Part shown: positions 4,591-27,367 of the stretch, in pieces | Position numbering within the stretch: the first letter of the stretch is position 1 | Layout of the letters: every line of letters starts with the position of its first letter | Assembly: GCA_964647905.1 (NCBI GenBank) | Contig: CAZYJR010000008.1 | Span: forward strand, 47,823-111,822 | Direction of reading: 5' to 3' | DNA from: an uncultured Desulfobacterales bacterium | GTDB lineage: Bacteria; Desulfobacterota; DSM-4660; Desulfatiglandales; HGW-15 | Length of the DNA stretch: 64,000 nucleotides | The notes under the pieces: generated by a model | Seen by the model: the letters and a program-made list of their open reading frames with translations, nothing else | What the model was told of the DNA's origin: nothing | Database searches by the model: none | Made by a program: the position numbers and the translations under genes

Positions 4591-4615
4591 ACTTCGGGGA
4601 GGAGAATAATAATCG

Positions 4616-5296: not shown

Positions 5297-5316
5297 CAGT
5301 CAACCGGAGGAAACCC

Positions 5317-6142: not shown

Positions 6143-6172
6143 CTGCGCAACCACTTAAACTTTGGAGATGCC

Positions 6173-6496
6173 ATGACACAAGAGGACAAGGCGGCGCGTA
6201 TGTTCAAGGTGCTTTCCTCCGCCACCAGGCTGAGGATGACGGAGCTCTTGAAGGGCCGGGCCCTGTGCGTAAACGCGCTTGCCCGGGCCCTGGAGATCAC
6301 CCCCGCGGCTGTCTCCCAGCACCTCAGGGTACTGCGAGACGCGGACCTGGTCACAGGAGAAAAGAGGGGGAACTTTGTCCACTATACCATGAACCAAAAG
6401 ACCCTCCTCGAGTGGTACGAGACTGCGGCCGGATTCCTGGCAGTGCAGGAAAGGATCGTCCTTCCCACCATACAGGGCGGAGACGGGAAAGACTAA
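6173..6496 (+). CDS. ArsR/SmtB-family transcriptional regulator
   Basis: 107 aa with HTH LCVNALARALEITPAAVSQHLRVLRDADLV and wing GNFVHYTMN. Confidence 0.9.
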   Translation: MTQEDKAARMFKVLSSATRLRMTELLKGRALCVNALARALEITPAAVSQHLRVLRDADLVTGEKRGNFVHYTMNQKTLLEWYETAAGFLAVQERIVLPTIQGGDGKD

Positions 6497-6498
6497 GG

Positions 6499-10123: not shown

Positions 10124-10825
10124 ATGCTGTTGGGCACGATCGTCAACACTCTGGCCATCATCGCAGGCGGACTCATAGGTCTCTTCTTCAGCCGTTTCAT
10201 CCCGGAGAGGCATTCCGGAACGGTAATTCAGGCGGTGGCCCTTGCCATCATCATGATGGGAATCAAGATGGCCTGGGGGACGGAAGACGTCATCCTGGTC
10301 ATCTGCAGCTTGGCCCTTGGAGGGGCCCTGGGTGCGGTGATCGGGGTCGAGGATCGGCTGGAGGGCCTGGGGAACAAGCTCCAACAGCGCTTCAGCGGAT
10401 CGGGGGAAGGAATATCCAAGGCCTTCGTGTTCACCAGCCTCCTCTACTGCGTTGGATCCCTGGCCATCGTAGGGTCTCTGGAGAGCGGACTCGAGGGGAA
10501 GCATGAAATACTCTTCGCCAAGTCCGTGTTGGACGGCCTGGGATCAGTCCTCTTCGCCGCGACCATGGGTGTAGGCGTCCTTTTCTCCTCGATTCCTGTC
10601 TTTCTCTACCAGGGTGGCATAGTCGTTACAGCGTCCTTCGGCAAACAGCTCCTGACCCCGGAGGTGATCGCTCAGATGTCCGCTGTGGGCGGGCTGCTCA
10701 TCATGGGCATGGGGCTCAACATGCTCGGTGCCACCAAGATCAAGGTGGGGGATATTCTTCCCGCCATATTCGTCCCCCTCCTGTACCACCTGTCCAGGGA
10801 TCTGATAACGCTTTTCTTTTCCTGA
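10124..10825 (+). CDS. DUF554-family integral membrane protein
   Basis: 233 aa. N-terminus MLLGTIVNTLAIIAGGLIGL and Gly-rich TM segments are typical of YdfK/YqgA-like DUF554. Confidence 0.7.
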   Translation: MLLGTIVNTLAIIAGGLIGLFFSRFIPERHSGTVIQAVALAIIMMGIKMAWGTEDVILVICSLALGGALGAVIGVEDRLEGLGNKLQQRFSGSGEGISKAFVFTSLLYCVGSLAIVGSLESGLEGKHEILFAKSVLDGLGSVLFAATMGVGVLFSSIPVFLYQGGIVVTASFGKQLLTPEVIAQMSAVGGLLIMGMGLNMLGATKIKVGDILPAIFVPLLYHLSRDLITLFFS

Positions 10826-10882
10826 TCTTTACCGTCCTCCGGACACCGGTCATACCCGTCTCTCCATCAAACTCCCCCGATC

Positions 10883-10896
10883 TTGACTTAGGTCAA
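10883..10896. promoter_or_regulatory. CRP/FNR-type palindrome TTGACTTAGGTCAA (copy 1 of 5)
   Basis: Exact 14-mer, intergenic, upstream of the xdhC remnant and fmdE paralog. Confidence 0.6.
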
Positions 10897-10900
10897 AGAC

Positions 10901-11098
10901 ATGGAGCGACGGCTCCTTAAGATGGAACCAGAGGACAGGACGATTCCTGCACAGGGGCCCGGGCGGGGAAGCGCTGCACCCATCGGCCTGGATATCGGTG
11001 CCGACACGCCCGGCGAGACGGCAGTGGCCATAGCGGCTGAATTGATCCAGGCACGCCGCAGACCCCTTTCTCCCGAAACGGAGAGGATAGGAGGGTGA
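10901..11098 (+). pseudogene. C-terminal remnant of an XdhC/CoxI-family Mo-cofactor insertion protein
   Basis: Only 65 codons. APIGLDIGADTPGETAVAIAAELIQ matches the conserved XdhC C-terminal block. The N-terminal roughly 200 aa are missing. Confidence 0.5.
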
Positions 11099-11100
11099 TC

Positions 11101-11748
11101 ATGGAAAGAACCGCCCGGCGCCTAGCCGGCGCCCCCCTGGCGGGGACAATCGGGGAATACACGTTCGCCCGGTTCAAGAAAAAGGTGGAGGCCTTTCACG
11201 GCGCGCCCGCCCCGGGGATTCTCATCGGAGGCTACATGGTGGTGCTGGCGAGATCCATGCTTCCGCCGGGGACGCTGTTCGAGGCGCTGGTCGAAACATC
11301 CAAGTGCCTGCCCGACGCGGTGCAGCTGCTGACCCCGTGCAGCACCGGGAATCGCCGCATGAAGGTCGTAGACCTCGGACGCTACGCCCTGACTCTCTAC
11401 GATAAGGTCAATGGAAAAGGCAGGCGCGTATCCATCGATCTTCAACTGCTGGCCGACTGGCCGGAGATTCGTGATTGGTTCATGAAGCTCAGGCCTAAAA
11501 GGGAGCAGGACACCGATCGATTGCTCATGGAGATCGAACAGGCCGGCGAAGCATTCCTGGCCTGCGAGCCCGTTCAGATCAAAGAACCGTGGCTTCAAAA
11601 AGAGTCTATAGGAGAGATCGGAATCTGCCCTATGTGCCGGGAGGCCTACCCCAAGAACCACGGACCTTGCTGCCGCGGCTGCAACGGCGGCGCCCCCTTT
11701 CGTCCCCTGGAATCCGGAGGCAAAGGGACCTTGTCAATCGCCTCATGA
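11101..11748 (+). CDS. FmdE/FwdE-family protein with C-terminal zinc ribbon (paralog of 5317-6009)
   Basis: ATG 5 nt after GGAGGG. FHGAPAPGILIGGYMV motif; C-terminal CPMCRE...CCRGC. Confidence 0.7.
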   Translation: MERTARRLAGAPLAGTIGEYTFARFKKKVEAFHGAPAPGILIGGYMVVLARSMLPPGTLFEALVETSKCLPDAVQLLTPCSTGNRRMKVVDLGRYALTLYDKVNGKGRRVSIDLQLLADWPEIRDWFMKLRPKREQDTDRLLMEIEQAGEAFLACEPVQIKEPWLQKESIGEIGICPMCREAYPKNHGPCCRGCNGGAPFRPLESGGKGTLSIAS

Positions 11749-11939
11749 CTCCCTTCCTTGCTCCATGGCCGAGCACTCGAGGGTCTTACTGGGAGCTTTT
11801 CAGGCCGATCGGACATGTCAGGCCTTTTATCAACCATTTCAGCCTGTTTTAGCATAGCAACAATCGCTGACCCCCCGTTGACGCAAATAGACCCGCTCGA
11901 GTTTTTTTTCGAGCCTATGTCTCTCGAAACCTCATTTCC

Positions 11940-11953
11940 TTGACTTAAGTCAA
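11940..11953. promoter_or_regulatory. CRP/FNR-type palindrome TTGACTTAAGTCAA (copy 2 of 5)
   Basis: Perfect 14-bp palindrome 76 nt upstream of the CBS-gene ATG. A TGnGCTAT -10-like element lies about 30 nt downstream of its centre (class II geometry). Confidence 0.6.
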
Positions 11954-12028
11954 AGCCCGGCCTCCTTGCTTGTGCTATGCGTGAGCCATCATCCGGCGTA
12001 TCCGGCGGATGCAAACAGGAGCAAAGCT

Positions 12029-12646
12029 ATGCCGGAGGACAGAGAGACATACAGTCAAGGCATTCCCCGGTCGATCGACCTCTCCGAGGAGGATGTCTAC
12101 GACGCCATGAAGGAGCTCTCGGGATACCTGGACATCACTCCGGGAGACTTCAGAGACGTTTACAGGCACGCATACCGCCACGCCGTGGAGCGGATCACCC
12201 GTACGATAAAGGCCCGCCACGTCATGACCAGAGAGGTGGTATTCGTCCACCCTGAGGCTACGGCTGGGGAGGTCGCCCTCTTGATGGCCCGCCACGGCAT
12301 CTCGGGACTCCCGGTGCTCGACCAGGCCGGCCGCGTAAAGGGGGTGATCTCGGAGAAGGACTTCCTCAGCCATATGGCGGCGGGGGCGAACCTGACATTT
12401 ATGGAGGTGGTGGCGGAGTGCTTGGAGGCCAAGCGATGCGCGGCCAGTCCGGTTCGGACCAAGACCGCCGCAGAGATCATGACCTCGCCTGCGATAACGG
12501 TGGGCGAGGATACCCCGATCATGGACATAGCCGACCTGCTGGTGGAGAGCAATATCAACAGGGTGCCGGTAGTGGATCAGGACGGCGGACTGAAGGGCAT
12601 CGTCTCCAGGGAGGACTTGGTCAAGTCGATTACGTTCCAGGGATAA
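12029..12646 (+). CDS. CBS-pair domain protein
   Basis: ATG 7 nt after AGGAG. Two CBS repeats (VMTREVVFV...GISGLPVLD; IMTSPAITV...NINRVPVVD). Confidence 0.8.
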   Translation: MPEDRETYSQGIPRSIDLSEEDVYDAMKELSGYLDITPGDFRDVYRHAYRHAVERITRTIKARHVMTREVVFVHPEATAGEVALLMARHGISGLPVLDQAGRVKGVISEKDFLSHMAAGANLTFMEVVAECLEAKRCAASPVRTKTAAEIMTSPAITVGEDTPIMDIADLLVESNINRVPVVDQDGGLKGIVSREDLVKSITFQG

Positions 12647-12650
12647 CAAA

Positions 12651-13187
12651 ATGGAATTCACAAGGAAAATGAAGGGGAGCACCAAGAGCCCGCCTCCGGT
12701 AAGGGCCAAGGAGATTCTCTGGTCCTGGATCGGGTCCTTCTTGGGAATTGCGGCGGTGGGGTATATAAATGACCCCCTTCTTTCACAAACCGACCTGGTG
12801 ATGATCATCGGATCCTTCGGAGCGTCCGCGGTCCTCATATACGGGGCGGTCAAGAGCCCCCTGGCCCAGCCCAGGAATCTCCTGGGCGGCCATGTCATCT
12901 CCGCGTTCATCGGCGTCATGAGCTATCAGATCTTTCAAGGCAATATCTGGCTTGCCGGCGCGTTTGCCGTGGCCACGGCCATTGCGGCCATGCACGCGAC
13001 CAAGACGCTTCACCCTCCGGGCGGTGCCAGCGCCCTTATAGCCGTAATCGGGGGCAGGGAGATCCAAGACCTGGGCTACCTGTATGTTGTCGTCCCGGTA
13101 GGGTTGGGGGCCGCTGTGATGCTGGTGGTGGCCCTGGTGGTCAACAACCTGCCGAAAGACAGGAGGTATCCTGAATTCTGGTGGTAA
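12651..13187 (+). CDS. HPP-family membrane protein
   Basis: 178 aa and hydrophobic. Contains the eponymous LHPPGGASALIAV motif. Confidence 0.8.
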   Translation: MEFTRKMKGSTKSPPPVRAKEILWSWIGSFLGIAAVGYINDPLLSQTDLVMIIGSFGASAVLIYGAVKSPLAQPRNLLGGHVISAFIGVMSYQIFQGNIWLAGAFAVATAIAAMHATKTLHPPGGASALIAVIGGREIQDLGYLYVVVPVGLGAAVMLVVALVVNNLPKDRRYPEFWW

Positions 13188-13206
13188 TCATGGAATAGGA
13201 GGAGCC

Positions 13207-15741
13207 ATGGAACTCAGAAGACGAACCCTCTTGAAGCTGGGAGTCGTGTCCTGGGCCGCGGCATCGCTCGATATGAAGTTCTTCAGCTACCTGGGCGAAG
13301 CCGCTATACCGAAGAACGAGGACAGGGTAGTTCGTTCAACCTGCTCCCCCAACTGCACCGGGGCCTGCGGTTTCAACGCCCATGTGACCGACGGCAGAAT
13401 AACCACCCTTATCCAAAGCGCCGACTATCCTGAAGAAGGGTACAACCCCAGGGGATGCCTCCGCGGGCTCTCCATGATGAACCTGATATACGGAAAAGAC
13501 CGGATCAAATACCCGCTCATCCGCACGGGGCCGCGGGGAAGCGGCCTTTTCCGCAAGGCGACCTGGGACGAGGCCCTCGACTACGCAGCCGAAAAACTCA
13601 AGGGCGTAATGGAAAAATACGGGCCCGAGGCCGTCGGTCTGACGGTCCAGGTGCCGGGGACGGGCTATGTACACAAGGGGGCCTTTGTGAGGCTGGCCGG
13701 GCTGGCCGAATGGTCCATCCACCACGGCTATGATCAAAACGGGGATCTGCCCATGTTCTGGCCCATGACCTTCGGGGTACAGACCGAGGAGCTGGAATCC
13801 CTGGAATGGCCAAACGCCCGCTACACAATGGTTTGGGGCTCCAATATAATTCAGACCCGCCTCCCGGACGCCCACAATCTAATAAAGGCCAAGGAGAACG
13901 GCAAACTCGTGGTAATGGACCCCGACTTCTGCTCCACAGCGGCAAAGGCGGATGAATGGGTGCCGGTGAAGCCTGATACCGATGCGGCCCTGGCCATGGG
14001 GATGGCCAAGGTGATGATCGACAGGCGGCTCTTCGATGGTGACCTTCTCCGAGATTTCACGGACATGCCCATCCTGGTCAGGAAAGACACGGGAAAACGC
14101 CTCCTGGGCCGGGACGTAAAGGAGCTGGCCGGCGCGGCGGCCCGCCGGGACATACCCGACTACCGGGATCTATTCGTTGTCAGGAAGGGGGAAGGCCTTG
14201 CCCTTCTGGATCCCGAGGACCTGAAACCCTCGGGAGCGGAGCTGGAATGGGAGGGGGTCGTGGAGCTCGCCGGAGGGGGCAAGGTGGAGGCGACGACGAT
14301 CTTCAATCTGCTCAAGGAGCGACTGGAGGGCTTCTCTGTGGAGAGGGTCTCGGGGATAACCGAGGTCCCGGCCGAGCAGATACAAAGGATAGCCGTGGAG
14401 GCGGCGGAGAACACACCGCTCCACGTGATTTACGGGGCCAGCAATTATCAATGGTACAACGGTGACCTGAAAGGCCGGGCCATCTCTCTGCTTCCGGTCC
14501 TTACCGGGAGCATCGGGAAGAGCGGCGGCGGGTTGTCCACGTATGCCGGGCAGTACAGGATCCGGTTCGACCTCGGGGACTGGTGGTTTCCCCCGGAGGG
14601 CAGGCTCAACTGGGTCCCTTACCTCTACTTCCTCCAGGGCGGGGGGAAACGCTATCCCGAAAACGGCATAAAGGCCATGGTCGGCGGGTGGGGAAACCCC
14701 TTCGACCAGCACAACATGGCCAACCGCCTGAAGGAACGCGCCTCCTCCGGGGACATCCAATTCATACTGACGTTCGATTTCTCCATGACCACCTCGTGCA
14801 TGTGGTCCGATGTGGTCCTCCCGGCCACCACCTGGTACGAGAACTATGAGCTGACCGCCACCATCCTCCACCCGTATCTGCAGCTCCAGCAGCCCGCGAT
14901 AAGGCCCCTTTTCCAGAGCCGCACCGGGCTGTGGGTCGCAAGGGAGCTGGCCAAGAGGCTCGATCCGGGGTTTGAGAAGTACTTCTTCCCGGAGCTGGAC
15001 GAGGAGCGCGCCTCCCTTCGGGTGATCGATCTGCTGCTCGAGACAGGCGGTCCGGAGACGGCCGGGATAACATCGGATATGCTCAGGAAGGGGCCGATCC
15101 GCCTTCATTCCACGGCCCCGGAGGACAGGCAGATCCCGTTCTACGAGCAGGTGAATAAGAGGGTCCCGTTCCCGCCAAGGAGCTATCCCCCGCCCCTGGA
15201 GGCGACGGCGAGGTTCGTGAGGAGCGGCAGGATCGAGTTTTACAAGGACGAGGACCTGTTCCTCGAGACCGATGAGCAGCTTCCCACCCACAAGGATACA
15301 TTCGAGGAGACGGAGTACAGAGTAAACCCTGACGCCCGCTGGAGGTACAAGCTTCGCTTTGTGACCAAGAACTCCCTCTACAGGGTGCATTCCACTCATT
15401 CCAACAACGTGTGGATGAACGAACTTCAGGGCAACAGGCCCAAGGTGTTTCTGAACCCTGAAGACGCCCGCGAGAGGGCCATAGAGAACGGAAATCTCGT
15501 GGAGGTCTACAACGACAGGGGCAGGACCCGGGCATACGTGGTGATTGATCCGGGATGCCGCAAGGGAACGATCATATTCGACCAAGGCTGGTGGGCCAAG
15601 TACCTGAAGAATGAGTCCTACAACTCCCTGACCATGCCTTGGATCAAACCCCATCACGAAATCTACTTCGTACCCGGGATCTGGTCCCCCACCACGGTGT
15701 GGAACGAATGCCTGGTGGACGCAAGGAGGGTCGAAGAATGA
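13207..15741 (+). CDS. Tat-exported type II DMSO-reductase-family (NarG/EbdA/SerA-like) molybdopterin catalytic subunit
   Basis: SD AGGAGG. Tat signal RRRTLLKLGVVSWAAA. FS0 motif C-x3-C-x3-C (CSPNCTGAC). YDQNGDLPMFWPMTFGVQTEE...WGSNIIQTRLPDAH aligns to E. coli NarG [20 protein letters not shown]...WGSNVPQTRTPDAH, including the Asp Mo ligand. Confidence 0.85.
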   Translation: MELRRRTLLKLGVVSWAAASLDMKFFSYLGEAAIPKNEDRVVRSTCSPNCTGACGFNAHVTDGRITTLIQSADYPEEGYNPRGCLRGLSMMNLIYGKDRIKYPLIRTGPRGSGLFRKATWDEALDYAAEKLKGVMEKYGPEAVGLTVQVPGTGYVHKGAFVRLAGLAEWSIHHGYDQNGDLPMFWPMTFGVQTEELESLEWPNARYTMVWGSNIIQTRLPDAHNLIKAKENGKLVVMDPDFCSTAAKADEWVPVKPDTDAALAMGMAKVMIDRRLFDGDLLRDFTDMPILVRKDTGKRLLGRDVKELAGAAARRDIPDYRDLFVVRKGEGLALLDPEDLKPSGAELEWEGVVELAGGGKVEATTIFNLLKERLEGFSVERVSGITEVPAEQIQRIAVEAAENTPLHVIYGASNYQWYNGDLKGRAISLLPVLTGSIGKSGGGLSTYAGQYRIRFDLGDWWFPPEGRLNWVPYLYFLQGGGKRYPENGIKAMVGGWGNPFDQHNMANRLKERASSGDIQFILTFDFSMTTSCMWSDVVLPATTWYENYELTATILHPYLQLQQPAIRPLFQSRTGLWVARELAKRLDPGFEKYFFPELDEERASLRVIDLLLETGGPETAGITSDMLRKGPIRLHSTAPEDRQIPFYEQVNKRVPFPPRSYPPPLEATARFVRSGRIEFYKDEDLFLETDEQLPTHKDTFEETEYRVNPDARWRYKLRFVTKNSLYRVHSTHSNNVWMNELQGNRPKVFLNPEDARERAIENGNLVEVYNDRGRTRAYVVIDPGCRKGTIIFDQGWWAKYLKNESYNSLTMPWIKPHHEIYFVPGIWSPTTVWNECLVDARRVEE

Positions 15742-16412
15742 GAAGAGGCATGGTCATCGATCTCGAGAGCTGTATAGGGTGCCGTTCATGCGCGGTTGCG
15801 TGCAAGGAGCACAATGCCCAGCCGCCCGGGAACTGGTGGAACAGGGTCATGTCCCCCGGGAGCCACCGCCATCTCACGCCGCCGGAAAAAGGACGGATGT
15901 ACTTTCTCCCTGTCCACTGCCAGCACTGCGAGAACGCCCCCTGTGAAAAGGTCTGCCCGGTGGACGCCACCTACCGCTCGGACCAGGGGGAGATCCTGGT
16001 GGACTTCGAGCGGTGCATCGGGTGCCGCTACTGCATGGCCGCCTGCCCTTACGGCGTCCGGCAGTTCAATTGGGAAGAGCCGAAAAAGGCCGTCCGCAAG
16101 TACGAGTATCAAAACGGCTACGTCTACGGACACCCCCGGGAATACCGCCTGAAAGGGCGGCTCGTCTATATGCCTTTCCGATTCAAAGGGGTGGTCGAAA
16201 AGTGCAACTGCTGTGTTCATTACAAGGATCAAGGGCTGGAGCCCGCCTGCGTGCGGGGGTGCCCAGGAAATGCGCGGCACGTGGGCGACCTGGACGATCC
16301 GGAAAGCGAGGTGTCCAGAATGATCCGGGATAAGAACGGTTTCAACCTCTTGCCGGAGAAGGGGACGAGACCCAATGTGTTCTATCTCCCCCCGAGAAGG
16401 AAGGAGGTCTAG
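15738..16412 (+). CDS. 4Fe-4S ferredoxin-type beta subunit (short, DmsB/PsrB-like)
   Basis: In-frame ATG at 15738 overlaps the alpha stop (ATGA). Four Cys clusters (CIGCRSCAVAC, CQHCENAPCEKVCP, CIGCRYCMAACP, CNCCVH...CVRGCP). Confidence 0.85.
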   Translation: MRRGMVIDLESCIGCRSCAVACKEHNAQPPGNWWNRVMSPGSHRHLTPPEKGRMYFLPVHCQHCENAPCEKVCPVDATYRSDQGEILVDFERCIGCRYCMAACPYGVRQFNWEEPKKAVRKYEYQNGYVYGHPREYRLKGRLVYMPFRFKGVVEKCNCCVHYKDQGLEPACVRGCPGNARHVGDLDDPESEVSRMIRDKNGFNLLPEKGTRPNVFYLPPRRKEV

Positions 16413-16415
16413 GGC

Positions 16416-17645
16416 ATGAGAAGCATCAAGAATTGGGCGATTCTGGCAAGCGGCCTCCTAATAGTGGTAGGGGCCATGGCCTGGATTTATCAATACAGAG
16501 AAGGACTGATGGTAACCAACATGAGGAACTCTTACTCATGGGGACTTTATGTCTCGGGGCTCGCCTTCTTTGTGGGCAACGCCGCCGGAGGGCTGGTGCT
16601 CACCTCACTGATTTACGTCTTCGGCCTGACTCACCTCAAGCCCTTTGCAAAGATAGGCGCTCTTACCGCCTTTGCCAATGTCACCGCGGCCATGCTCTCC
16701 ATACTCCCGGACATAGGACAACCGATCCGCCTCTACAATTTGCTGCTGCACCCTCAGCTCGCATCCCCCTTGATCTGGGACATCGTCATCCTGAATCTCT
16801 ACGCGGTGCTCTCCCTGCTCTACCTCTACCTCCTGATCCTCCCGGATCTCAAGGGGCGGCTCGGGAGGCTGGCCTTGAAAGTGGATGACCCTGCGGCGTT
16901 CTCCGAGAAATGGGTCAAGCGCCTGGCCCCGTTTTCTCTGGTGGCCGCGGTGGGAATCCACGTGATAACGGCCTGGATCTTCGCCACCCAGGGGGCCAGG
17001 GACTGGTGGAACTCGGCCGCGCTCGCCCCGGATTTCCTTGCGGCTGCCCTGGCCTCCGGGACCGCGGTGGTCCTGCTTGTTTCCCTGTTTGCTTACGGCG
17101 TCAAAGAAAAACATGCCCGCGCATATCGCACTATGGGTATTTTTATATCCGTTTCTTTGTTTATACATTTCTTCCTGATGTATAATGATTTTTTCATACA
17201 TGCCTGGTATGGCGCGTCTGAGGCCTTGTCCACCCTGTCCGTCACCCTGAAGGATTACGGAGCGGCCCACGCCTTTGAAACGGCCGCCCCGCTCTTGGCC
17301 GTTCTTCTATTTCTCTCCGCGAAGACCAGGCAGCGTGCGTGGGCCCTGGCCTCCGGCTGCCTGCTGGTGCTCTCGGGCGTCTTTGTCCATCGCTTCCTGC
17401 TGATGCCCGCCGCCTTCGACAGAATACCGCTCTCCTTTGAGCCGCTGGGGCTCCAGCACACTGACTGGGCGATGCCCATAGCCTCGGGGCGGTATGGCGA
17501 GGGGCTGGATGTCTTTGTCACCAAGTGGCATTACTTCCCGAGCGCAATAGAGTGGGCGGTGTTCCTCGGGGTCCTTGCCTACGTGAGCATCCTCCTCCTC
17601 ATCGCCGTCGACCGACTTCCGATTCTGAGCAGGGAGGGATCATGA
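16416..17645 (+). CDS. NrfD/PsrC-type membrane anchor subunit
   Basis: 409 aa, polytopic, SD AGGAGG. Same architecture as 3445-4590. Confidence 0.8.
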   Translation: MRSIKNWAILASGLLIVVGAMAWIYQYREGLMVTNMRNSYSWGLYVSGLAFFVGNAAGGLVLTSLIYVFGLTHLKPFAKIGALTAFANVTAAMLSILPDIGQPIRLYNLLLHPQLASPLIWDIVILNLYAVLSLLYLYLLILPDLKGRLGRLALKVDDPAAFSEKWVKRLAPFSLVAAVGIHVITAWIFATQGARDWWNSAALAPDFLAAALASGTAVVLLVSLFAYGVKEKHARAYRTMGIFISVSLFIHFFLMYNDFFIHAWYGASEALSTLSVTLKDYGAAHAFETAAPLLAVLLFLSAKTRQRAWALASGCLLVLSGVFVHRFLLMPAAFDRIPLSFEPLGLQHTDWAMPIASGRYGEGLDVFVTKWHYFPSAIEWAVFLGVLAYVSILLLIAVDRLPILSREGS

Positions 17646-18268
17646 TGGATCGAGCCGCTCTCAAAGAAGACCTCAAGGCCTTGTCCGCGCTTTTCAGCTA
17701 CCCGACTCGACCGCACTCCCTGGGGGACCTCAAGAGGGCGGGCCTCATGGAGGTGGGGAATGGCCGGCCGCCGGTGGGAACCACCGGGCTCCGAACCCTT
17801 CAAAACGCCTATGTGCGCCTGTTCATAAACGCCCTCCCGGAAATCCCCTGCCCGCCGTACGGCTCTTTCCACCTGGAAGGAACGCTAATGGGGGTCTCCA
17901 CCCTGCGCATCCGGGATCTCTACGCGGCATACGGCTTTCAGACCCGGGAGATGCCGGATCACATAGCGGTGGAGCTGGAATTCCTCCACCTTCTGACCCA
18001 CCTACTGCCCGTTGGGGACCTCGAGGTGAGGCAGGATCACGCATTCCTCTTGGAGCACCTCAGGCTGTGGTCCCCCGCCTTTTTCGAAGGTGTGGAGGTA
18101 AGTGACGAAAGCGGCTTCTACGCGGGAGTCTGCAGATTCGCCGGTTCCGTGCTCCAGGCCGATTTCATGGATGAAGCAGAGCTTCTGAGCATGCACTATC
18201 CTCCTGAGACCGGGACCGGCAGCTTGATTATGCACCGGGCCCCTTTATCGGGAACGGGCTCGAGATAG
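17642..18268 (+). CDS. TorD/NarJ-family chaperone
   Basis: ATG at 17642 overlaps the upstream stop (ATGA). PDHIAVELEFLHLL motif. The last roughly 30 codons run into a foreign antisense remnant, so the C-terminal end is uncertain. Confidence 0.7.
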   Translation: MMDRAALKEDLKALSALFSYPTRPHSLGDLKRAGLMEVGNGRPPVGTTGLRTLQNAYVRLFINALPEIPCPPYGSFHLEGTLMGVSTLRIRDLYAAYGFQTREMPDHIAVELEFLHLLTHLLPVGDLEVRQDHAFLLEHLRLWSPAFFEGVEVSDESGFYAGVCRFAGSVLQADFMDEAELLSMHYPPETGTGSLIMHRAPLSGTGSR

Positions 18269-18423
18269 ATCTCCCCCAAGCTCCTCCGGGCGGCCAACCG
18301 GGCTATAGGGAGACCGAACCCTGTTCCGTAGGGTTTGGAGGAATGAAAGGGGATGAAGGACTCAACCAGGATGCAGTCCCCCGAGAAGTCCTCCTGGAGA
18401 AAGGAGCTCGTCGGATGAGACAA
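18196..18423 (-). pseudogene. Orphan C-terminal fragment of a histidine-kinase ATPase domain
   Basis: KPYGTGFGLPIARLAARRSLGEIYLEPVPDKGARCIIKLP matches the G2 box and C-terminus of HATPase_c. No HisKA or sensor part lies upstream. It overlaps the torD 3' end and the hdrC 5' leader. Confidence 0.5.
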
Positions 18424-19044
18424 AGATCAGCGAAGAACACGCTCTCAGACAAGGGAGAGGTCAAAGGCTGTGTTGATTTGACCGACAAGGACGATTCTCT
18501 CCTGGACGAGGTCAACCGGCTGAGCGGAGAGAACATAGGGCTATGCCTTCATTGCCGGTGCTGCGCCAACGGCTGTCCTTATACCGAGGTGATGGACTAT
18601 CCGCCGCATGTAGTTTTTCGCCTGGTTCAGTTGGGGCTCAGAGAAGAGGCCCTGGCATGCTCGACCATTTGGATATGTGTGAGCTGCAACACCTGCTCCA
18701 TTCAGTGCCCTGTTGCCCTCGATATTCCGGCCGTAATGGACGGTCTGCGCTATGTGGCCTTGAGCGATGACGCCAGGCTCGGAGAGCCGGAAATTGTCAA
18801 ATTCCACAGAGAAGTAGTTCAATCCATCCGGCGTCACGGCAGAACCCACAAGCTGGAAATCATGCTGAACTACAAAATCAGGACCCGGAAATGGTTCGAG
18901 GACATGGACTTGGGATTGAAGATGCTGGCCAAGCGAAAGCTGGATCTTCGACCTTCCCGGATCAAGGGGATCGAAGGGGGCTCCTGGAGCAGGATCTTCG
19001 AAGGAAAAGGAGGGAACCATGGGATATGGAGAAGAGACAGTTGA
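18415..19044 (+). CDS. hdrC: Heterodisulfide reductase subunit C-like protein
   Basis: ATG 8 nt after GGAGAAAGGAG. Two ferredoxin motifs, CLHCRCCANGCP and CVSCNTCSIQCP, spaced as in HdrC. Confidence 0.75.
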   Translation: MRQRSAKNTLSDKGEVKGCVDLTDKDDSLLDEVNRLSGENIGLCLHCRCCANGCPYTEVMDYPPHVVFRLVQLGLREEALACSTIWICVSCNTCSIQCPVALDIPAVMDGLRYVALSDDARLGEPEIVKFHREVVQSIRRHGRTHKLEIMLNYKIRTRKWFEDMDLGLKMLAKRKLDLRPSRIKGIEGGSWSRIFEGKGGNHGIWRRDS

Positions 19045-19891
19045 GATGTCCTATTTCCCGGGATGCTCAATGGTGACTTCTGCGAAGGAGAGCAATCTTT
19101 CTCTTCTGCAGGTTATGAAAAACCTGGATATGAATCTAACCGAGCTGGACGACTGGAACTGCTGCGGGTCTTCCTCGGCCCACAGCACGGACCCCTCTCT
19201 GGCCTTGAGTCTTGCGGCCAGGAACCTGACCCTGGCCTCCGGCCGAGTACCCCTGATGGTCATGTGCCCTTCGTGCCTAATACGGCTCAAGACGGCCCGA
19301 GCCTATCTCAGCAAAGACCCGGAAGCCCGGGAGCGCCAAGAGGAGTTATGGGGAGGGGCCATTGACCCGGACCTCAAAATCATGCATTTCTTTGAGGTGA
19401 TGGATGCGGTTCCGCCCGAACGCCTCGCCGCATCACGAGTCAAGAAGCTGGACCGCCTGAGAATCGCCGCGTACTACGGATGCATGCTGGCAAGACCCCC
19501 GATACTTCGAAAGGAGCCCCGCTATTCGGGAATAATGGAGAGGATTCTTTCCAGGGTCGGCGCCTACTGTGTGCCGTGGAGGTATCACTCTCTTTGCTGC
19601 GGGACCTTTCTGGCGGCGGCCAGACCGGATATCGCCACACCGTTGGTCAACAAAATAACTGAAGACGCGGTCAAATGGGGCGGGGAGTGCATTGTCACCG
19701 CCTGTGCCATGTGCCAAATCAATCTGGAGATCCGCTGTACCCTGAAAAGCAGGATCCCGGTGTTCCATTTCTCGGAGATCCTCGCCCTCGCCATGAGCGA
19801 AGACGGAGATTCCGCGGCGGGATGGCTGAAGCGCCACCTGACGGACCCTAGGCCCCTGCTGGCCGAAAAGGGATTGATTGAAACCCATTGA
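19019..19891 (+). CDS. hdrB: Heterodisulfide reductase subunit B-like (CCG-domain) protein
   Basis: SD AAGGAGGG. YFPGCS...NCCGS and YYGC...LCCG CCG-type motifs. Confidence 0.75.
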   Translation: MGYGEETVEMSYFPGCSMVTSAKESNLSLLQVMKNLDMNLTELDDWNCCGSSSAHSTDPSLALSLAARNLTLASGRVPLMVMCPSCLIRLKTARAYLSKDPEARERQEELWGGAIDPDLKIMHFFEVMDAVPPERLAASRVKKLDRLRIAAYYGCMLARPPILRKEPRYSGIMERILSRVGAYCVPWRYHSLCCGTFLAAARPDIATPLVNKITEDAVKWGGECIVTACAMCQINLEIRCTLKSRIPVFHFSEILALAMSEDGDSAAGWLKRHLTDPRPLLAEKGLIETH

Positions 19892-19982
19892 TCCAAAGCC
19901 GTTTATGACTAAAATAGTAGGAGTTGGTTGCCTGGGAGATGAGTATGACAAGACGCGTCAATCGTGCGAGGAGGGGGAAGCA

Positions 19983-20525
19983 ATGTACACCAAGACAGTG
20001 ATGGATCACTTCAAGTCCCCCCGAAACGTAGGGGTCATTGAAGACCCCGACGGGGTCGGGGAGGTGGGCAATCCTCTCTGCGGGGATATGATGAGCATCT
20101 ACCTCAAGGTGAAGGAGGAGCGGATAGAGGACATTAAGTTCCAGACCTTTGGTTGCGGTGCGGCCATCGCGGTCTCCAGCATGTTGACCGAGATGGCCAA
20201 GGGTAAGACCCTGGAGGAAGCGAAAAAAATCTCCAATAAGGACGTTGCCGAGGCCCTGGAAGGGCTTCCCAAGAACAAGCTCCACTGCTCCAACCTGGGG
20301 GCGGACGCCCTGCACATGGCGATCAAAGATTATGAAGACCGCAAGGCGGGAAAGCCCAAACCCGAGGAGAAACGCAAGGAGGTACATGAGCACACCCATG
20401 GGGGCAAGTGCTACTGTCCTTATTGTAAGTCTGAGCTTTCTGAAGGGATCAGCTTTTGTGAATCATGCCAGCTCAATGTGCACCCTGAACATGAATCATC
20501 CCAAGACCTTGGAGGATCGTCATGA
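19983..20525 (+). CDS. nifU: NifU/IscU-type Fe-S scaffold with C-terminal zinc-ribbon tail
   Basis: MYTKTVMDHFKSPRNVG...NPLCGD...FGCGAAIA...LHCS scaffold Cys triad, with SD GAGGAGGGGG. Tail is CYCPYC...CESC. Confidence 0.85.
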   Translation: MYTKTVMDHFKSPRNVGVIEDPDGVGEVGNPLCGDMMSIYLKVKEERIEDIKFQTFGCGAAIAVSSMLTEMAKGKTLEEAKKISNKDVAEALEGLPKNKLHCSNLGADALHMAIKDYEDRKAGKPKPEEKRKEVHEHTHGGKCYCPYCKSELSEGISFCESCQLNVHPEHESSQDLGGSS

Positions 20526-21682
20526 AGGTGGTGAATCTGGATCATCTCTCGGCCAACCCACTGCTCCCCCCGGTGCAGGACGCCATGATCGAGGCCGTAA
20601 AGAAGAATTACGGCAATCCTTCAAGTCAGCATCGCCTCGGAGACAAGGCGGCCGAAGTCCTTGAATCAGCAAGGGAATCCGCGGCCTCGCTTATTGGATG
20701 CCGAACTCCAAAGGAGGTGGTCTTCACCTCGGGAGGGACGGAGTCCGTGAACCATGCCATCAAAGGGGCCGCCCTGGCCCTGCGCGAAAAGGGCCGTCAC
20801 ATAGTAAGCTCCAATATTGAGCATAATGCCGTGCTTCGAGCCCTGAGAAGACTCAAGCTAATGGATTACAAGGTCACCTCCCTGCCCGTGGACCCGGACG
20901 GGCGGGTGGATCCTCAAGACGTGGCCAAGGCCATCCGCGGGGACACCATCCTGGTGACGATCATGCACAGCAACAACGAGATCGGGACCCTTGAGCCAAT
21001 CAGGGAGATCGCACAGATTACGCGGGAGCGGAAGGTCTTGTTTCACACAGATGCCGTAGACTCTGTAGGAGTCCTTCCCGTTAATGTTCAGGAGCTTGGA
21101 GTGGACCTGCTGAGTTTCGCCTCAAATACGTTCTATGGCCCCGCTGGGGTGGGCGGACTCTATGTGAGAAGCGGCACTAAGCTGTGGCCCCTGCTGGACG
21201 GCGGGGTGCAGGAAAACAACAAGCGGGCTGGCGCTGAAAACCTCATCGGCATCGTAGGCATGGGGGTTGCGGCGGATCTCGCCCGCGAGGAAATGCCGCA
21301 TCGAATGGCGCATGTGAGAAGCTTGAGGGAAAAGCTGCTCCGAGAGCTACCCCGGTTCGTGGACGAATACCATATCAACGGGCATCCCGAGCATTGCCTG
21401 CCCCACCTTGTTTCGATCTCCATCAAGTACGTGGAAGGAGAGAGCATTGTCCTGCTGCTGGATGAGGAGGGATTCGCGGTTTCCACACGATCGGCCTGTG
21501 CCGCCGGGGCGCTTCAGGCATCCCATGTGCTTCTGTCCATAGGCAGGGACTTTGCCGATGCCCAAGGCACTCTTGTGATCTCTCTTGGGATGGAAAACAC
21601 CGCTGCCGACATCGACCGCTTCTTGCCGGCCCTTAGATCCGCGGTGGCCACCCTGCGGAAGATATCCCCCCTTTACAATTAG
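20522..21682 (+). CDS. nifS: Cysteine desulfurase (NifS/IscS class)
   Basis: 386 aa, class V aminotransferase pattern (FTSGGTESVN, SNIEHNAV, HTDAV, ...STRSACA active-site Cys). 4-nt overlap with nifU. Confidence 0.85.
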   Translation: MKVVNLDHLSANPLLPPVQDAMIEAVKKNYGNPSSQHRLGDKAAEVLESARESAASLIGCRTPKEVVFTSGGTESVNHAIKGAALALREKGRHIVSSNIEHNAVLRALRRLKLMDYKVTSLPVDPDGRVDPQDVAKAIRGDTILVTIMHSNNEIGTLEPIREIAQITRERKVLFHTDAVDSVGVLPVNVQELGVDLLSFASNTFYGPAGVGGLYVRSGTKLWPLLDGGVQENNKRAGAENLIGIVGMGVAADLAREEMPHRMAHVRSLREKLLRELPRFVDEYHINGHPEHCLPHLVSISIKYVEGESIVLLLDEEGFAVSTRSACAAGALQASHVLLSIGRDFADAQGTLVISLGMENTAADIDRFLPALRSAVATLRKISPLYN

Positions 21683-27353: not shown

Positions 27354-27367
27354 TTGACTTAAGTCAA
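27354..27367. promoter_or_regulatory. CRP/FNR-type palindrome TTGACTTAAGTCAA (copy 3 of 5)
   Basis: Centre is about 135 nt upstream of the hcp ATG. Confidence 0.6.

What the first reader, a model, noticed from the sequence alone, without database searches (positions are those of the whole stretch)
11940..18268. NarG-type (Asp-ligand) periplasmic Mo enzyme wired to a Psr-type beta/NrfD module, with CBS and HPP genes
The alpha subunit (13207-15741) carries type II DMSO-reductase hallmarks: a C-x3-C-x3-C FS0 motif and the NarG-like block YDQNGDLP...WGSNIIQTRLPDAH with the Asp Mo ligand. It is short at 844 aa and Tat-exported. Its partners are a 224-aa four-cluster beta and a 409-aa NrfD-type quinol-interacting subunit. 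The usual partners would be a NarH-like beta plus a heme-b gamma (NarI/EbdC/SerC), so the electron-transfer module resembles Psr/Arr rather than Nar/Ebd/Ser. The operon is led by separate CBS-pair and HPP genes, and HPP proteins have been implicated in nitrite transport in cyanobacteria and plastids. It sits behind the same palindrome that precedes hcp. The substrate is unknown; a nitrogen or other oxyanion is an inference.
Basis: partly seen in the sequence, partly recalled or inferred. Interest (0 to 1): 0.65.

Follow-up and report, generated by a model that had tools for sequence, protein, structure and literature searches.

The report
NrfD-coupled periplasmic Nar-like molybdoenzyme operon
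A sulfate-reducer-type bacterium carries a six-gene operon for an exported, nitrate-reductase-like molybdenum enzyme of a kind already described in Archaeoglobus fulgidus, and its regulation and gene neighbours point to a role in nitrate/nitrite metabolism rather than the perchlorate role proposed for that archaeon.

Summary
The classification also holds. In my tree the alpha falls inside the type II (Asp) clade with 97% bootstrap. The beta is ArrB/PsrB/DsrO-like with four complete Cys groups, not NarH-like. No haem-b gamma gene occurs in the window or in 80 related loci.

The architecture is not new. This is the A. fulgidus AF0174-0176 family (53% identity over the full length), known since 2001-2006 and assigned to (per)chlorate reduction in 2013. 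Listed relatives occur in Moorella, Carboxydothermus and Desulfitobacterium.

What I add:
- The palindrome TTGACTTAAGTCAA matches the predicted HcpR box of delta-proteobacteria. It lies upstream of alpha in 27 of about 33 Desulfobacterota loci.
- hcp, NO-reductase flavodiiron, RIC, hemerythrin and HAO-like octahaem genes recur next to the operon. Chlorite dismutase never does.
- HPP, mostly with CBS, recurs in several arrangements.

The best reading is a menaquinol-dependent periplasmic nitrate reductase in a nitrite/NO-responsive regulon. The substrate is unproven. This is a new member of a known kind.

The parts
11940..11953 (.). CRP/FNR-type palindrome TTGACTTAAGTCAA, a predicted HcpR box, 76 bp upstream of the CBS start codon. 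A TG-n-TATGCG extended -10-like element at 11973-11981 would put the box near -41.5, which is class II geometry (inferred).
   Evidence: The same box type lies 96-365 bp upstream of alpha in 27 Desulfobacterota loci. It matches the consensus wyTTGACnnnnGTCAArw predicted for HcpR of non-Desulfovibrio delta-proteobacteria (PMC1274295).
12029..12646 (+). Stand-alone CBS-pair protein (205 aa). Proposed cytoplasmic ligand-sensing partner of the HPP protein.
   Evidence: Pfam CBS, 121 bits, two stretches. The gene call is in L081. It is adjacent to HPP in 12 of the 80 related loci (plus a weak CBS match in L069).
12651..13187 (+). HPP-family integral membrane protein (178 aa). Proposed nitrite channel or transporter.
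   Evidence: Pfam TM_HPP, 210 bits, full length. It is adjacent to the alpha-beta-NrfD core in 14 of 80 loci, in several arrangements: upstream in the same direction, upstream divergent, or downstream.
13207..15741 (+). Catalytic alpha subunit (844 aa): Tat signal, FS0 Cys46/50/54/84, and Asp180 as the predicted Mo ligand. Type II-like Mo-bisPGD enzyme of the AF0176 family.
15738..16412 (+). Beta subunit (224 aa) with four complete Cys groups, implying 4 x [4Fe-4S]. ArrB/PsrB/DsrO-like. No signal peptide, so presumably exported with alpha.
   Evidence: NCBIfam: DsrO 190 bits, ArrB 188, TtrB 165, against type II beta 111 and NarH 66. PDB: ArrB 165 and PsrB 142, against EbdB 100, PcrB 96 and NarH 66. 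Group III is CIGCRYCMAAC, whereas Nar/type II betas have W, Y or F at the second Cys.
16416..17645 (+). NrfD-family membrane subunit (409 aa, 10 predicted helices). Proposed menaquinol-oxidising anchor.
   Evidence: Pfam NrfD, 168 bits. Best NCBIfam hit is DsrP at 144 bits, below cut-off. The only PDB hit is ACIII ActC.
17645..18268 (+). TorD/NarJ/DmsD-family chaperone (207 aa) for cofactor insertion and Tat proofreading of alpha.
   Evidence: Pfam Nitrate_red_del, 78 bits. Found in this position in 46 of the 80 related loci at BLAST level.
10883..10896 (.). Second HcpR-type box (TTGACTTAGGTCAA), upstream of an XdhC_C remnant (10922-11098) and the FmdE-like gene.
11101..11748 (+). FmdE-like protein with a treble-clef zinc finger. 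Probable accessory gene of the Mo enzyme; role unknown.
   Evidence: Pfam FmdE, 117 bits, plus zf-Tbcl_FmdE. An FmdE gene also flanks alpha in the Archaeoglobus locus L089, the Methanoperedenaceae locus L030 and the Nitrospirota loci L066 and L068.
27354..27367 (.). Identical TTGACTTAAGTCAA box about 130 bp upstream of hcp (25471-27225, minus strand). This marks the shared regulon.
   Evidence: hcp is identified by Pfam Prismane at 538 bits and the NCBIfam hydroxylamine reductase equivalog at 786 bits.

Best explanation
The operon encodes a periplasmic, membrane-anchored, menaquinol-dependent oxyanion reductase of the AF0174-0176 family. Its physiological substrate in this organism is most likely nitrate.

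Proposed mechanism:
1. The TorD-like chaperone holds apo-alpha until Mo-bisPGD and FS0 are inserted.
2. Alpha, carrying the signal-less beta, is exported by Tat and docks on the 10-helix NrfD subunit.
3. Menaquinol is oxidised in NrfD.
4. Electrons pass through four [4Fe-4S] clusters in beta to FS0 and then to the Asp180-ligated Mo.
5. Nitrate is reduced there to nitrite. Chlorate and perchlorate are probably reduced as side substrates.

Transcription is driven from a class II-type promoter by an HcpR-like CRP/FNR regulator that responds to nitrite or NO. The same regulator controls hcp. The co-transcribed HPP membrane protein, gated by the soluble CBS-pair protein, is proposed to move nitrite across the cytoplasmic membrane.

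Shown here: domain content, family membership, conservation of the Asp and Cys ligands, conserved gene order, the conserved box, and the neighbour enrichment. Inferred: the substrate, the direction of electron flow, the identity and signal of the regulator, and the function and direction of HPP/CBS.
For: Enzyme class:
- Best solved relatives are PcrA (338 bits) and NarG (237 bits), with the ligand Asp aligned.
- Asp180 is invariant in 116 of 116 members.
- The NJ tree puts the family (100% bootstrap) inside a 97% clade with NarG, haloarchaeal pNarG, PcrA and TIGR03479 members.

Wiring:
- Alpha-beta-NrfD is kept in all 80 loci across Desulfobacterota, Bacillota, Nitrospirota, Archaeoglobi, Methanoperedenaceae and others.
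- The beta is Arr/Psr-type with four full Cys groups.
- No NarI or EbdC-like gene is present.

Link to nitrogen oxides:
- The box equals the predicted HcpR site of delta-proteobacteria. That regulon was predicted to include hcp, nrfHA and nar (PMC1274295).
- The box is conserved upstream of alpha in 27 of about 33 Desulfobacterota loci and in L076. About 0.0015 matches per 400 bp are expected by chance (my calculation).
- hcp lies within 6 kb in 9 loci of two phyla, plus D. hippei, where it is directly upstream.
- In Desulfobulbus loci L020 and L063 the divergent operon is CBS-HPP-hcp.
- Other recurring neighbours are an NO-reductase flavorubredoxin equivalog, an RIC equivalog, hemerythrin and an HAO-like octahaem cytochrome. 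The octahaem gene is directly upstream of alpha in Nitrospirota.
- The Archaeoglobus locus is flanked by DUF438-hemerythrin-PAS, DUF1858 and a flavodiiron protein.
- An HPP gene belongs to the NO-induced hcpR1 operon of D. desulfuricans, and HcpR1 binds the nap promoter there (PMC5701242).
- D. phosphitoxidans, which has a 72%-identical alpha, grows by nitrate ammonification (PMC4046663).
Against: - No member of this family has been shown to reduce nitrate.
- The only experimental assignment, for A. fulgidus by proteomics as summarised in PMC8322695 and PMC6299022, is perchlorate reduction.
- A. neptunius carries a homologue yet uses neither nitrate nor perchlorate (PMC8322695).
- The two residues before the ligand Asp are W-Y in NarG and PcrA but invariably Q-N here. 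The position of PcrA gate residue W461 (Glu in NarG) is an invariant Tyr. The pocket is therefore not a copy of either enzyme.
- HcpR regulons also contain genes unrelated to nitrogen (PMC1274295).
- No HcpR gene was found in the window.
- HPP/CBS adjacency holds in only about 1 in 6 loci.
- Nitrite transport by HPP proteins is known to me only from cyanobacteria and plastids, from my own knowledge and not tested here.
Confidence: 0.5

Rival explanations
1. It is a (per)chlorate reductase working as proposed for A. fulgidus. Perchlorate or chlorate is reduced to chlorite in the periplasm, and the chlorite is removed abiotically by the sulfide that a sulfate reducer produces, with no chlorite dismutase needed.
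For: - This is the only experimentally based assignment in the family (Liebensteiner 2013, as summarised in PMC8322695, PMC6299022 and PMC4150442).
- The window alpha is 53% identical over the full length to the A. fulgidus-type protein.
- The closest solved structure is perchlorate reductase PcrA.
- The closest plasmid-borne homologue sits next to a chlorite dismutase gene.
- One source names the M. thermoacetica member 'perchlorate reductase subunit alpha'.
Against: - No chlorite dismutase lies within 6 kb in any of 80 loci or in the window.
- The conserved regulatory box and the recurrent neighbours (hcp, NO reductase, RIC, HAO-like cytochrome, HPP) are all nitrogen-oxide related.
- The PcrA gate residues are not kept: F164 becomes G and W461 becomes Y.
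- Nar-type enzymes reduce chlorate and perchlorate promiscuously (PMC4150442), so the A. fulgidus activity may be a side reaction.
Confidence: 0.2
2. It reduces a different oxyanion or oxide, such as selenate, tellurate, arsenate, DMSO or another S- or N-oxide. The HcpR box would then reflect only general redox or stress control.
For: - Type II enzymes include selenate reductase and DMS dehydrogenase (my own knowledge).
- All NCBIfam hits are below their cut-offs, so no named function applies.
- An ArrA-like operon with the same beta/NrfD/TorD/FmdE layout lies 7 kb upstream. This shows the organism invests in several oxyanion reductases.
- The Q-N substitution next to the ligand sets the pocket apart from Nar and Pcr.
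Against: - Nothing in the neighbourhoods points to Se, As or S substrates.
- The nitrogen-oxide association recurs independently in three phyla and in the Archaeoglobus locus.
Confidence: 0.15
3. It runs in the oxidising direction, like the periplasmic type II dehydrogenases (Nxr of Nitrospira, Ebd, Ddh). It would oxidise a reduced compound and deliver the electrons to menaquinone through NrfD, as Arx does for arsenite.
For: - Most Tat-exported type II enzymes known to me are dehydrogenases.
- NrfD modules can work in either direction (my own knowledge).
Against: - Oxidising nitrite or NO with menaquinone as acceptor is strongly endergonic. The standard potentials are about +0.43 V and +0.35 V against -0.07 V (my own knowledge).
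- The hosts are strict anaerobes without an obvious high-potential acceptor.
- No substrate-specific neighbours, such as hydrocarbon pathways, were seen in 80 loci.
Confidence: 0.05

Closest known systems
Archaeoglobus fulgidus AF0174-AF0176 (+AF0173) 'Nar-like / perchlorate reductase' cluster and its listed relatives (Ferp_0124, GAH_01285, Moth_1908, CHY_2082, Desde_0947)
   Same: - Same gene order: (FmdE-)alpha-beta-NrfD-TorD.
- 53% identity over the whole alpha.
- Same Tat signal, the same C-x3-C-x3-C FS0 and the same NGDLP ligand block.
- Monophyletic with the window protein at 100% bootstrap.
- The M. thermoacetica, C. hydrogenoformans and D. dehalogenans proteins named in PMC6299022 are all recovered as family members.
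   Different: - The archaeal and Nitrospirota alphas are about 50 residues longer.
- The window operon is led by CBS and HPP genes and an HcpR-type box. Both are features of the Desulfobacterota branch and have not, as far as I found, been described.
- The published functional assignment is perchlorate, whereas the context here points to nitrate/nitrite.
Perchlorate reductase PcrAB(C) of Azospira (PDB 4YDD) and the cld-linked alpha on the Alisedimentitalea plasmid
   Same: - Closest solved structure (338 bits) and closest plasmid homologue (34% identity, 449 bits).
- Asp ligand, Tat export and a similar size.
   Different: - Those enzymes pair with a type II beta carrying a 3Fe-4S signature and with a cytochrome c or PcrC. 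They are not paired with NrfD.
- Their FS0 starts with His or Asn rather than Cys.
- The gate residues differ.
- They sit next to chlorite dismutase.
Respiratory nitrate reductases NarGHI (E. coli) and archaeal periplasmic pNarGH (Haloferax mediterranei)
   Same: - Asp-ligated Mo and the WGSN..QTR.PDAH block.
- Same clade in the tree.
- pNarG is also Tat-exported (stated in PMC6299022).
   Different: - NarG is 1247 aa and cytoplasmic, with NarH (3Fe-4S) and dihaem NarI.
- pNar uses NarH plus Rieske/cytochrome b and an EbdC-like protein.
- None of those partners is present here.
Polysulfide reductase PsrABC, arsenate reductase ArrAB(C), and DsrOP of the DsrMKJOP complex
   Same: The electron-input module matches: a beta with four [4Fe-4S] clusters (ArrB 165 bits, PsrB 142, DsrO 190) and an NrfD-family quinol-interacting subunit.
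   Different: - Their catalytic subunits use a Cys ligand, or none in the case of Dsr, and belong to other clades. The window's own ArrA-like alpha is only 23% identical.
- The NrfD here has 10 predicted helices and resembles DsrP/ActC more than 8-helix PsrC.

Membership tests
DMSO-reductase family type II (Asp-ligand, 'D-group') catalytic subunits | An Asp in the conserved ...(Y/G/C)-D-(L/H)-P... block serves as the Mo ligand. | tested here: met
   D180 aligns with PcrA D170 and NarG D222 at high posterior probability. It is invariant in 116 of 116 relatives. Actual coordination to Mo cannot be tested in silico.
DMSO-reductase family type II (Asp-ligand, 'D-group') catalytic subunits | FS0 motif with x3 spacing (H/C-x3-C-x3-C-xn-C), as opposed to C-x2-C-x3-C. 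| tested here: met
   The motif is C46-x3-C50-x3-C54...C84. The first ligand is Cys rather than the His of NarG, PcrA and pNarG.
DMSO-reductase family type II (Asp-ligand, 'D-group') catalytic subunits | Phylogenetic placement with NarG, PcrA, EbdA-like and TIGR03479 members. | tested here: met
   The NJ tree used 782 columns and 100 bootstraps. It gives a 97% clade containing the family, E. coli NarG, Hfx pNarG, PcrA and representatives that pass the TIGR03479 cut-off, and it excludes DmsA.
DMSO-reductase family type II (Asp-ligand, 'D-group') catalytic subunits | Score at or above the curated NCBIfam TIGR03479 cut-off (984.75 bits). | tested here: not met
   The score is 447.7 bits. TIGR03479 is the best-scoring family but is far below cut-off. 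The protein is therefore a peripheral lineage of the clade, not a member of the subfamily as NCBI defines it.
DMSO-reductase family type II holoenzyme (alpha + NarH-like beta + haem-b gamma) | Beta subunit with 3 x [4Fe-4S] + 1 x [3Fe-4S], with an aromatic residue replacing the second Cys of group III. | tested here: not met
   Group III is CIGCRYCMAAC, with all four Cys present. NarH, pNarH and the Alisedimentitalea beta have W, Y and F respectively. The best families are DsrO, ArrB and TtrB.
DMSO-reductase family type II holoenzyme (alpha + NarH-like beta + haem-b gamma) | Haem-b gamma subunit (NarI or EbdC/SerC/PcrC-type) encoded with alpha and beta. | tested here: not met
   There are no NarI or EbdC-like matches in the window or in 80 related loci with 6-kb flanks. 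An NrfD gene is present in each locus that extends far enough. A gamma encoded elsewhere in the genome cannot be excluded from a 64-kb window.
AF0174-0176 family (A. fulgidus Nar-like/(per)chlorate reductase cluster) | Full-length similarity of alpha to the A. fulgidus protein and monophyly with it. | tested here: met
   There is 53% identity and 958 bits over 844/896 residues to P0274. That protein is named 'MULTISPECIES [Archaeoglobus]' and occurs on a 2,178,400-bp contig. The clade has 100% bootstrap. That P0274 is locus tag AF0176 is inferred from organism, contig size and gene order, not read from an annotation.
AF0174-0176 family (A. fulgidus Nar-like/(per)chlorate reductase cluster) | Gene order: Tat-alpha, small four-cluster beta, NrfD membrane subunit, TorD-like chaperone. 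| tested here: met
   The order is identical in the window and in L089. It is conserved in all 80 loci, except that the chaperone is not detected in most Bacillota loci.
AF0174-0176 family (A. fulgidus Nar-like/(per)chlorate reductase cluster) | (Per)chlorate-reducing activity. | not testable with these tools
   This needs enzyme assays. Context argues that it is not the primary role here: there is no cld, and the neighbours and regulation are nitrogen-oxide related.
HcpR regulon (CRP/FNR-family, nitrite/NO-responsive) | Palindrome matching wyTTGACnnnnGTCAArw in the promoter region, shared with hcp. | tested here: met
   There is a perfect box at 11940 and an identical one before hcp at 27354. 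The box is conserved in orthologous promoters. The consensus comes from PMC1274295.
HcpR regulon (CRP/FNR-family, nitrite/NO-responsive) | An HcpR-type regulator is present and binds the site, and expression responds to nitrite or NO. | not testable with these tools
   No Crp/Fnr-family gene was found among the window ORFs scanned. Binding and induction need experiments.

The most novel reading that the evidence does not exclude
This family may be a third, unrecognised class of respiratory nitrate reductase, distinct from Nar and Nap. It would combine an Asp-ligated type II catalytic subunit in the periplasm with an Arr/Psr-type four-cluster beta and a DsrP-like 10-helix NrfD quinol dehydrogenase. 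It is widespread in sulfate reducers, Bacillota, Nitrospirota and Archaeoglobi. In Desulfobacterota it would be under HcpR control and would come with a dedicated CBS-gated HPP nitrite channel. The perchlorate activity reported for A. fulgidus would then be a side reaction of a nitrate enzyme.
Probability: 0.4. Interest if true: 0.6.

Novelty: new member of a known kind. Interest (0 to 1): 0.4.

Why it matters
Nitrate and perchlorate amendments are used or proposed to control sulfide production ('souring') by sulfate reducers. Nitrate ammonification by anaerobes also decides whether nitrogen is retained or lost from sediments.

Many genomes in these groups carry this alpha-beta-NrfD cluster. 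It is annotated inconsistently as nitrate reductase, DMSO reductase, perchlorate reductase or 'selenocysteine-containing dehydrogenase', and its physiological substrate has never been settled.

The conserved HcpR-type box, the hcp/NO-reductase/RIC/HAO-like neighbours and the HPP/CBS pair give a concrete, testable prediction: nitrate reduction, induced by nitrite or NO. They also point to cultured organisms in which to test it. The operon further offers a prokaryotic, non-photosynthetic setting in which to test whether HPP proteins transport nitrite and whether a separate CBS-pair protein gates them.

Tried and rejected
- **Haem-b gamma, NarK, NarJ(Ec), chlorite dismutase, cytochrome c partner.** I ran tblastn with E. 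coli, Haloferax and Alisedimentitalea proteins against the window and 80 loci. There were no hits, so a hidden canonical type II architecture nearby is rejected.
- **Downstream HdrC/HdrB-like genes (18343-19891) as part of the system.** They are not conserved next to the operon in any related locus. Rejected.
- **An HcpR/Crp-Fnr gene in the window.** None was found among about 35 ORFs scanned.
- **HcpR2-type box GTAAC-N4-GTTAC in Bacillota loci.** None found. Those loci instead often have a sigma-54 activator upstream.
- **Promoter and terminator consensus scan of 10800-18500.** Counts were at chance level and uninformative.
- **Acididesulfobacillus DEACI_2560-2564.** I tried to show that this nitrate-induced 'NrfD-containing molybdopterin oxidoreductase' belongs to the family. 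Its layout fits (Crp/Fnr gene, 889-aa 'nitrate reductase', FeS, NrfD). No sequence named for that organism appeared among the top 120 hits, so this remains an unverified lead.
- **Primary papers.** Liebensteiner 2013 (Science) is not held; I did not try to fetch Dridge 2006. Their content is cited only through open reviews.
- **Sister relationship to the cld-linked clade.** Bootstrap support is only 39%, so I make no claim.
- **Structure prediction.** Not run. Sequence alignment to PcrA and NarG already fixes the ligand column, and a cofactor-free model would not settle the substrate.

Full report
**1. What is there**

The region holds six co-directional genes with minimal spacing:

| Gene | Coordinates |
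|---|---|
| CBS-pair protein | 12029-12646 |
| HPP membrane protein | 12651-13187 |
| Molybdopterin alpha subunit | 13207-15741 |
| Iron-sulfur beta subunit | 15738-16412 |
| NrfD-family membrane protein | 16416-17645 |
| TorD/NarJ-family chaperone | 17645-18268 |

The gaps are 4, 19, -4, 3 and about 0 bp, so this is one operon.

- The alpha begins MELRRRTLLKLG, a twin-arginine motif.
- It has an FS0 motif C46-x3-C50-x3-C54...C84.
- It has the block Y175-D-Q-N-G-D180-L-P...WGSNIIQTRLPDAH.
- HMMER alignments to solved structures place D180 on the Mo-ligand Asp of perchlorate reductase PcrA (D170) and of NarG (D222).
- In an alignment of 116 full-length relatives, D180, C54 and C84 are invariant. 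C46 and C50 are Cys in 110 and 104 sequences and Asp in the rest.

Only the start codons of CBS, beta and the chaperone need correcting.

**2. Classification of the subunits**

*Alpha.*
- The best NCBIfam model is the type II alpha subfamily TIGR03479 (448 bits, below its cut-off of 985). It is followed by DmsA/YnfE (266) and NarG (260).
- The best solved structures are PcrA (338 bits), NarG (237), EbdA (199) and NxrA (181), ahead of PsrA (171).
- A search of 1.84 billion cluster representatives supplied the nearest lineages.
- I built a neighbour-joining tree on 782 trimmed columns with 100 bootstraps.
  - The family is monophyletic at 100%.
  - It sits at 97% inside a clade with E. coli NarG, Haloferax pNarG, PcrA, a chlorite-dismutase-linked alpha from an Alisedimentitalea plasmid, and unnamed representatives.
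  - All ten of those unnamed representatives that I scanned have TIGR03479 as their best hit, and two pass its cut-off.
  - E. coli DmsA and many other 800-aa families lie outside this clade.

*Beta.*
- The best families are DsrO (190), ArrB (188) and TtrB (165). Type II beta scores 111 and NarH 66.
- The best structures are ArrB (165) and PsrB (142), ahead of EbdB, PcrB and NarH.
- In a direct alignment, cluster group III is CIGCRYCMAAC. NarH, pNarH and the Alisedimentitalea beta carry W, Y or F at the second Cys, which is the 3Fe-4S signature.
- The beta therefore predicts four [4Fe-4S] clusters. It also shares an insertion with the window's own ArrB-like protein.

*Membrane subunit.*
- It is an NrfD-family protein with ten predicted helices.
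- Its best NCBIfam hit is DsrP.
- Its only PDB hit is ActC of alternative complex III.
- It is closer to the 10-helix DsrP/ActC type than to PsrC.

The 'type II catalytic subunit on a Psr/Arr-type electron-input module' description is correct.

**3. How conserved the arrangement is**

A scan of one genome per species returned 80 loci with alpha at 51-77% identity. They come from Desulfobacterota, Bacillota (Moorella, Desulfosporosinus, Desulfitobacterium, Thermincola), Nitrospirota, Thermodesulfobacteriaceae, Archaeoglobi, Methanoperedenaceae and a few others.

- Every locus that extends far enough keeps alpha-beta-NrfD.
- The TorD-like gene follows in the Desulfobacterota, Nitrospirota and most Archaeoglobus-type loci.
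- None of the 80 loci, nor the window, contains a NarI, an EbdC-like haem-b protein, NarK, E. coli-type NarJ, chlorite dismutase or the Alisedimentitalea cytochrome c.

**4. This is a known family**

- Open literature describes the A. fulgidus cluster AF0174-AF0176. It was first annotated as a nitrate reductase. It was then treated as a periplasmic type II ('D-group') enzyme of unknown function. In 2013 it was assigned, from genomic and proteomic evidence, to reduction of perchlorate to chlorite, with chlorite removed abiotically by sulfide (PMC8322695; PMC6299022; PMC4150442).
- The same review lists relatives in Ferroglobus, Desulfosporosinus, Desulfitobacterium, Carboxydothermus (CHY_2082) and Moorella (Moth_1908).
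- A search seeded with the Archaeoglobus-type alpha of L065 recovered a protein named for Archaeoglobus that occurs on a 2,178,400-bp contig, together with the A. neptunius, C. hydrogenoformans, D. dehalogenans and M. thermoacetica proteins.
- That Archaeoglobus protein is 53% identical to the window alpha over its whole length.
- Its locus reads FmdE-alpha-beta-NrfD-TorD.

The window operon is thus a new, deltaproteobacterial-type member of a described family. The unusual wiring is not a discovery.

**5. What the context adds**

*The box.*
The identical 14-mer lies about 130 bp upstream of hcp at 27354-27367.
- Three more perfect TTGACTTAGGTCAA copies lie at 10883 (before an FmdE-like gene), at 27569, and at 30897 (before a small ORF and an RND efflux pair).
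- With up to one mismatch there are seven matches, against about one expected, and no shuffle out of 100 reached seven.
- The sequence equals the consensus wyTTGACnnnnGTCAArw that Rodionov et al. predicted for HcpR. HcpR is the CRP/FNR-family regulator of hcp in non-Desulfovibrio delta-proteobacteria. Its predicted regulon also contained nrfHA and a nar operon, and its inferred signal is nitrite/NO (PMC1274295).
- The box is a phylogenetic footprint. A TTGAY-N4-RTCAA site lies 96-365 bp upstream of alpha in 27 of about 33 Desulfobacterota-type loci and in the Thermodesulfobacteriaceae locus. It is absent from the Bacillota, Nitrospirota and archaeal loci. I calculate a chance expectation of about 0.0015 per 400 bp.
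- In the window a TG-n-TATGCG element at 11973-11981 would place the box near -41.5, as in class II activation. This is inference from the sequence.

*Neighbours.* I clustered all ORFs in the 80 loci and checked clusters with Pfam and NCBIfam. Nitrogen-oxide genes recur:
- hcp within 6 kb in nine loci of two phyla. It is directly upstream of alpha in Desulfosporosinus, including D. hippei.
- In the Desulfobulbus loci L020 and L063 hcp is the third gene of a divergent CBS-HPP-hcp operon.
- A flavodiiron protein that passes the NCBIfam cut-off for anaerobic NO reductase flavorubredoxin.
- The iron-sulfur repair protein RIC, also above cut-off.
- Hemerythrins.
- An HAO/HDH-like octahaem cytochrome c directly upstream of alpha in the Nitrospirota loci L068 and L069.
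- The Archaeoglobus locus is followed by DUF438-hemerythrin-PAS, DUF1858 and a flavodiiron protein.

*HPP and CBS.*
- HPP is adjacent in 14 of the 80 loci and CBS in 12-13.
- Four arrangements occur: upstream co-directional, upstream divergent, downstream of the chaperone, and, in Desulfitobacterium, HPP alone after NrfD.
- In D. desulfuricans an HPP gene belongs to the NO-induced hcpR1 operon. HcpR1 binds the promoter of the periplasmic nitrate reductase nap (PMC5701242).

**6. Most likely function and mechanism**

I read the complex as a periplasmic, menaquinol-dependent reductase whose physiological substrate here is nitrate, with chlorate and perchlorate as likely side substrates.

- By analogy with Psr and Arr, quinol is oxidised in NrfD. 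Electrons pass through four [4Fe-4S] clusters and FS0 to the Asp-ligated Mo.
- The chaperone and the Tat pathway deliver alpha-beta to the periplasm.
- An HcpR-like regulator co-induces the operon with hcp when nitrite or NO appears.
- HPP with its CBS partner is proposed to move nitrite across the membrane. The direction is unknown.

The anatomy, family membership, conserved box and neighbourhood statistics are shown. Substrate, electron direction, regulator identity and HPP function are inferred.

Points against the nitrate reading:
- No family member has been shown to reduce nitrate.
- A. neptunius has a homologue but uses neither nitrate nor perchlorate (PMC8322695).
- The residues before the ligand Asp are invariably Q-N, whereas Nar and Pcr have W-Y. 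PcrA's gate Trp461 (Glu in NarG) is an invariant Tyr.

Correlative support:
- D. phosphitoxidans has a 72%-identical alpha and grows by nitrate ammonification (PMC4046663).
- In Acididesulfobacillus a Crp/Fnr-linked 'nitrate reductase'-FeS-NrfD cluster is induced 8- to 30-fold on nitrate (PMC10949509). I could not verify that this cluster belongs to the family.

**7. Rivals**

- A dedicated (per)chlorate reductase has the only experimental precedent and the closest structure. It lacks any chlorite dismutase linkage and does not explain the nitrogen-oxide context.
- Another oxyanion cannot be excluded, because the pocket is distinctive and all curated models score below cut-off.
- An oxidising role is thermodynamically implausible with menaquinone.

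**8. Verdict**

- The system is a new member of a known kind.
- Its residual interest lies in the unresolved substrate of a widespread family, and in the conserved HcpR box, the hcp-type neighbourhood and the HPP/CBS association. I did not find these described, although my literature search was limited to open-access papers. Together they make the nitrate hypothesis directly testable.

Noticed in passing
window 25471-27225 (minus strand): The hybrid cluster protein has a 41-residue N-terminal extension, MLKKEITRRRFIQTGAMGVAASAFCPALLGSKELWAAQDTK, placed before the usual MFCYQCEQ start. It looks like a genuine twin-arginine signal peptide, which implies a periplasmic Hcp. The Hcp genes next to the related loci lack it.
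   Followed up: partly
window 126-6009 (+ strand): A second Tat-exported molybdoenzyme operon has the same layout. It comprises an ArrA-like alpha (NCBIfam ArrA 1271 bits, below the 1600 cut-off), a four-cluster beta, NrfD, a TorD-like chaperone and an FmdE-like gene. Its alpha is only 23% identical to the alpha under study.
   Followed up: partly
window 27569-27582 and 27359-27484 (minus strand); 30897-30910 and 31029-35822: There are two further perfect HcpR-type boxes. One precedes a 41-codon ORF (MTGSKINCWKFM...) whose stop codon lies inside the hcp box. The other precedes a 99-aa ORF followed by an HlyD/AcrB-type RND efflux pair.
   Followed up: no
loci L005, L006, L011, L054 (e.g. L005:7472-9148, L054:3728-4786): A cNMP-binding Ser/Thr protein kinase (L005, L006, L011, L054) lies close to the operon (beside the CBS-HPP genes where present), with a PP2C-like protein in L006 and L054 (also L034). 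Both carry an N-terminal Cys-rich segment (K-I/L-N-C-W-E...C...PGG), and the motif resembles the start of the small ORF upstream of hcp in the window.
   Followed up: no
family alignment, alpha positions 46 and 50 (e.g. Methanoperedens P0090, Planctomycetes P0120): In 6 and 12 of 116 family members respectively, the first or second FS0 cysteine is replaced by Asp (CSPNDTGAC). The cld-linked sister sequences have Asp or Asn at the first position.
   Followed up: no
L085 (Moorella thermoacetica) 3706-7677; also L035, L036, L056, L064: In Moorella, Thermanaeromonas and Desulfitobacterium a PAS/sigma-54 activator lies upstream of alpha; where checked (L085, L056, L064) a 746-aa Fdh/NasC/NapA-like molybdoprotein lies between it and alpha. 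This suggests different regulation and a possible second catalytic partner.
   Followed up: partly
window 23951-25199: An AbiEi/AbiEii type IV toxin-antitoxin pair lies between an MFS transporter gene and hcp.
   Followed up: no
window 18343-21682: Directly downstream of the operon lie HdrC-like (Fer4_17/Fer4_8) and HdrB-like (CCG domain) genes, followed by ORFs at 19878-20525 and 20522-21682 that look NifU/IscU-like and cysteine-desulfurase-like by eye; these two were not scanned against any family library. The HdrC/HdrB-like genes, the only ones tested, are not conserved next to the operon elsewhere.
   Followed up: partly
L083 (Alisedimentitalea scapharcae plasmid NZ_CP123588.1) 5116-10645: A conjugative plasmid carries chlorite dismutase, an 848-aa type II-like alpha, a type II beta, TorD and cytochrome c. 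This looks like a compact mobilechlorate-reduction island. Its alpha is the closest plasmid-borne relative of the family.
   Followed up: partly
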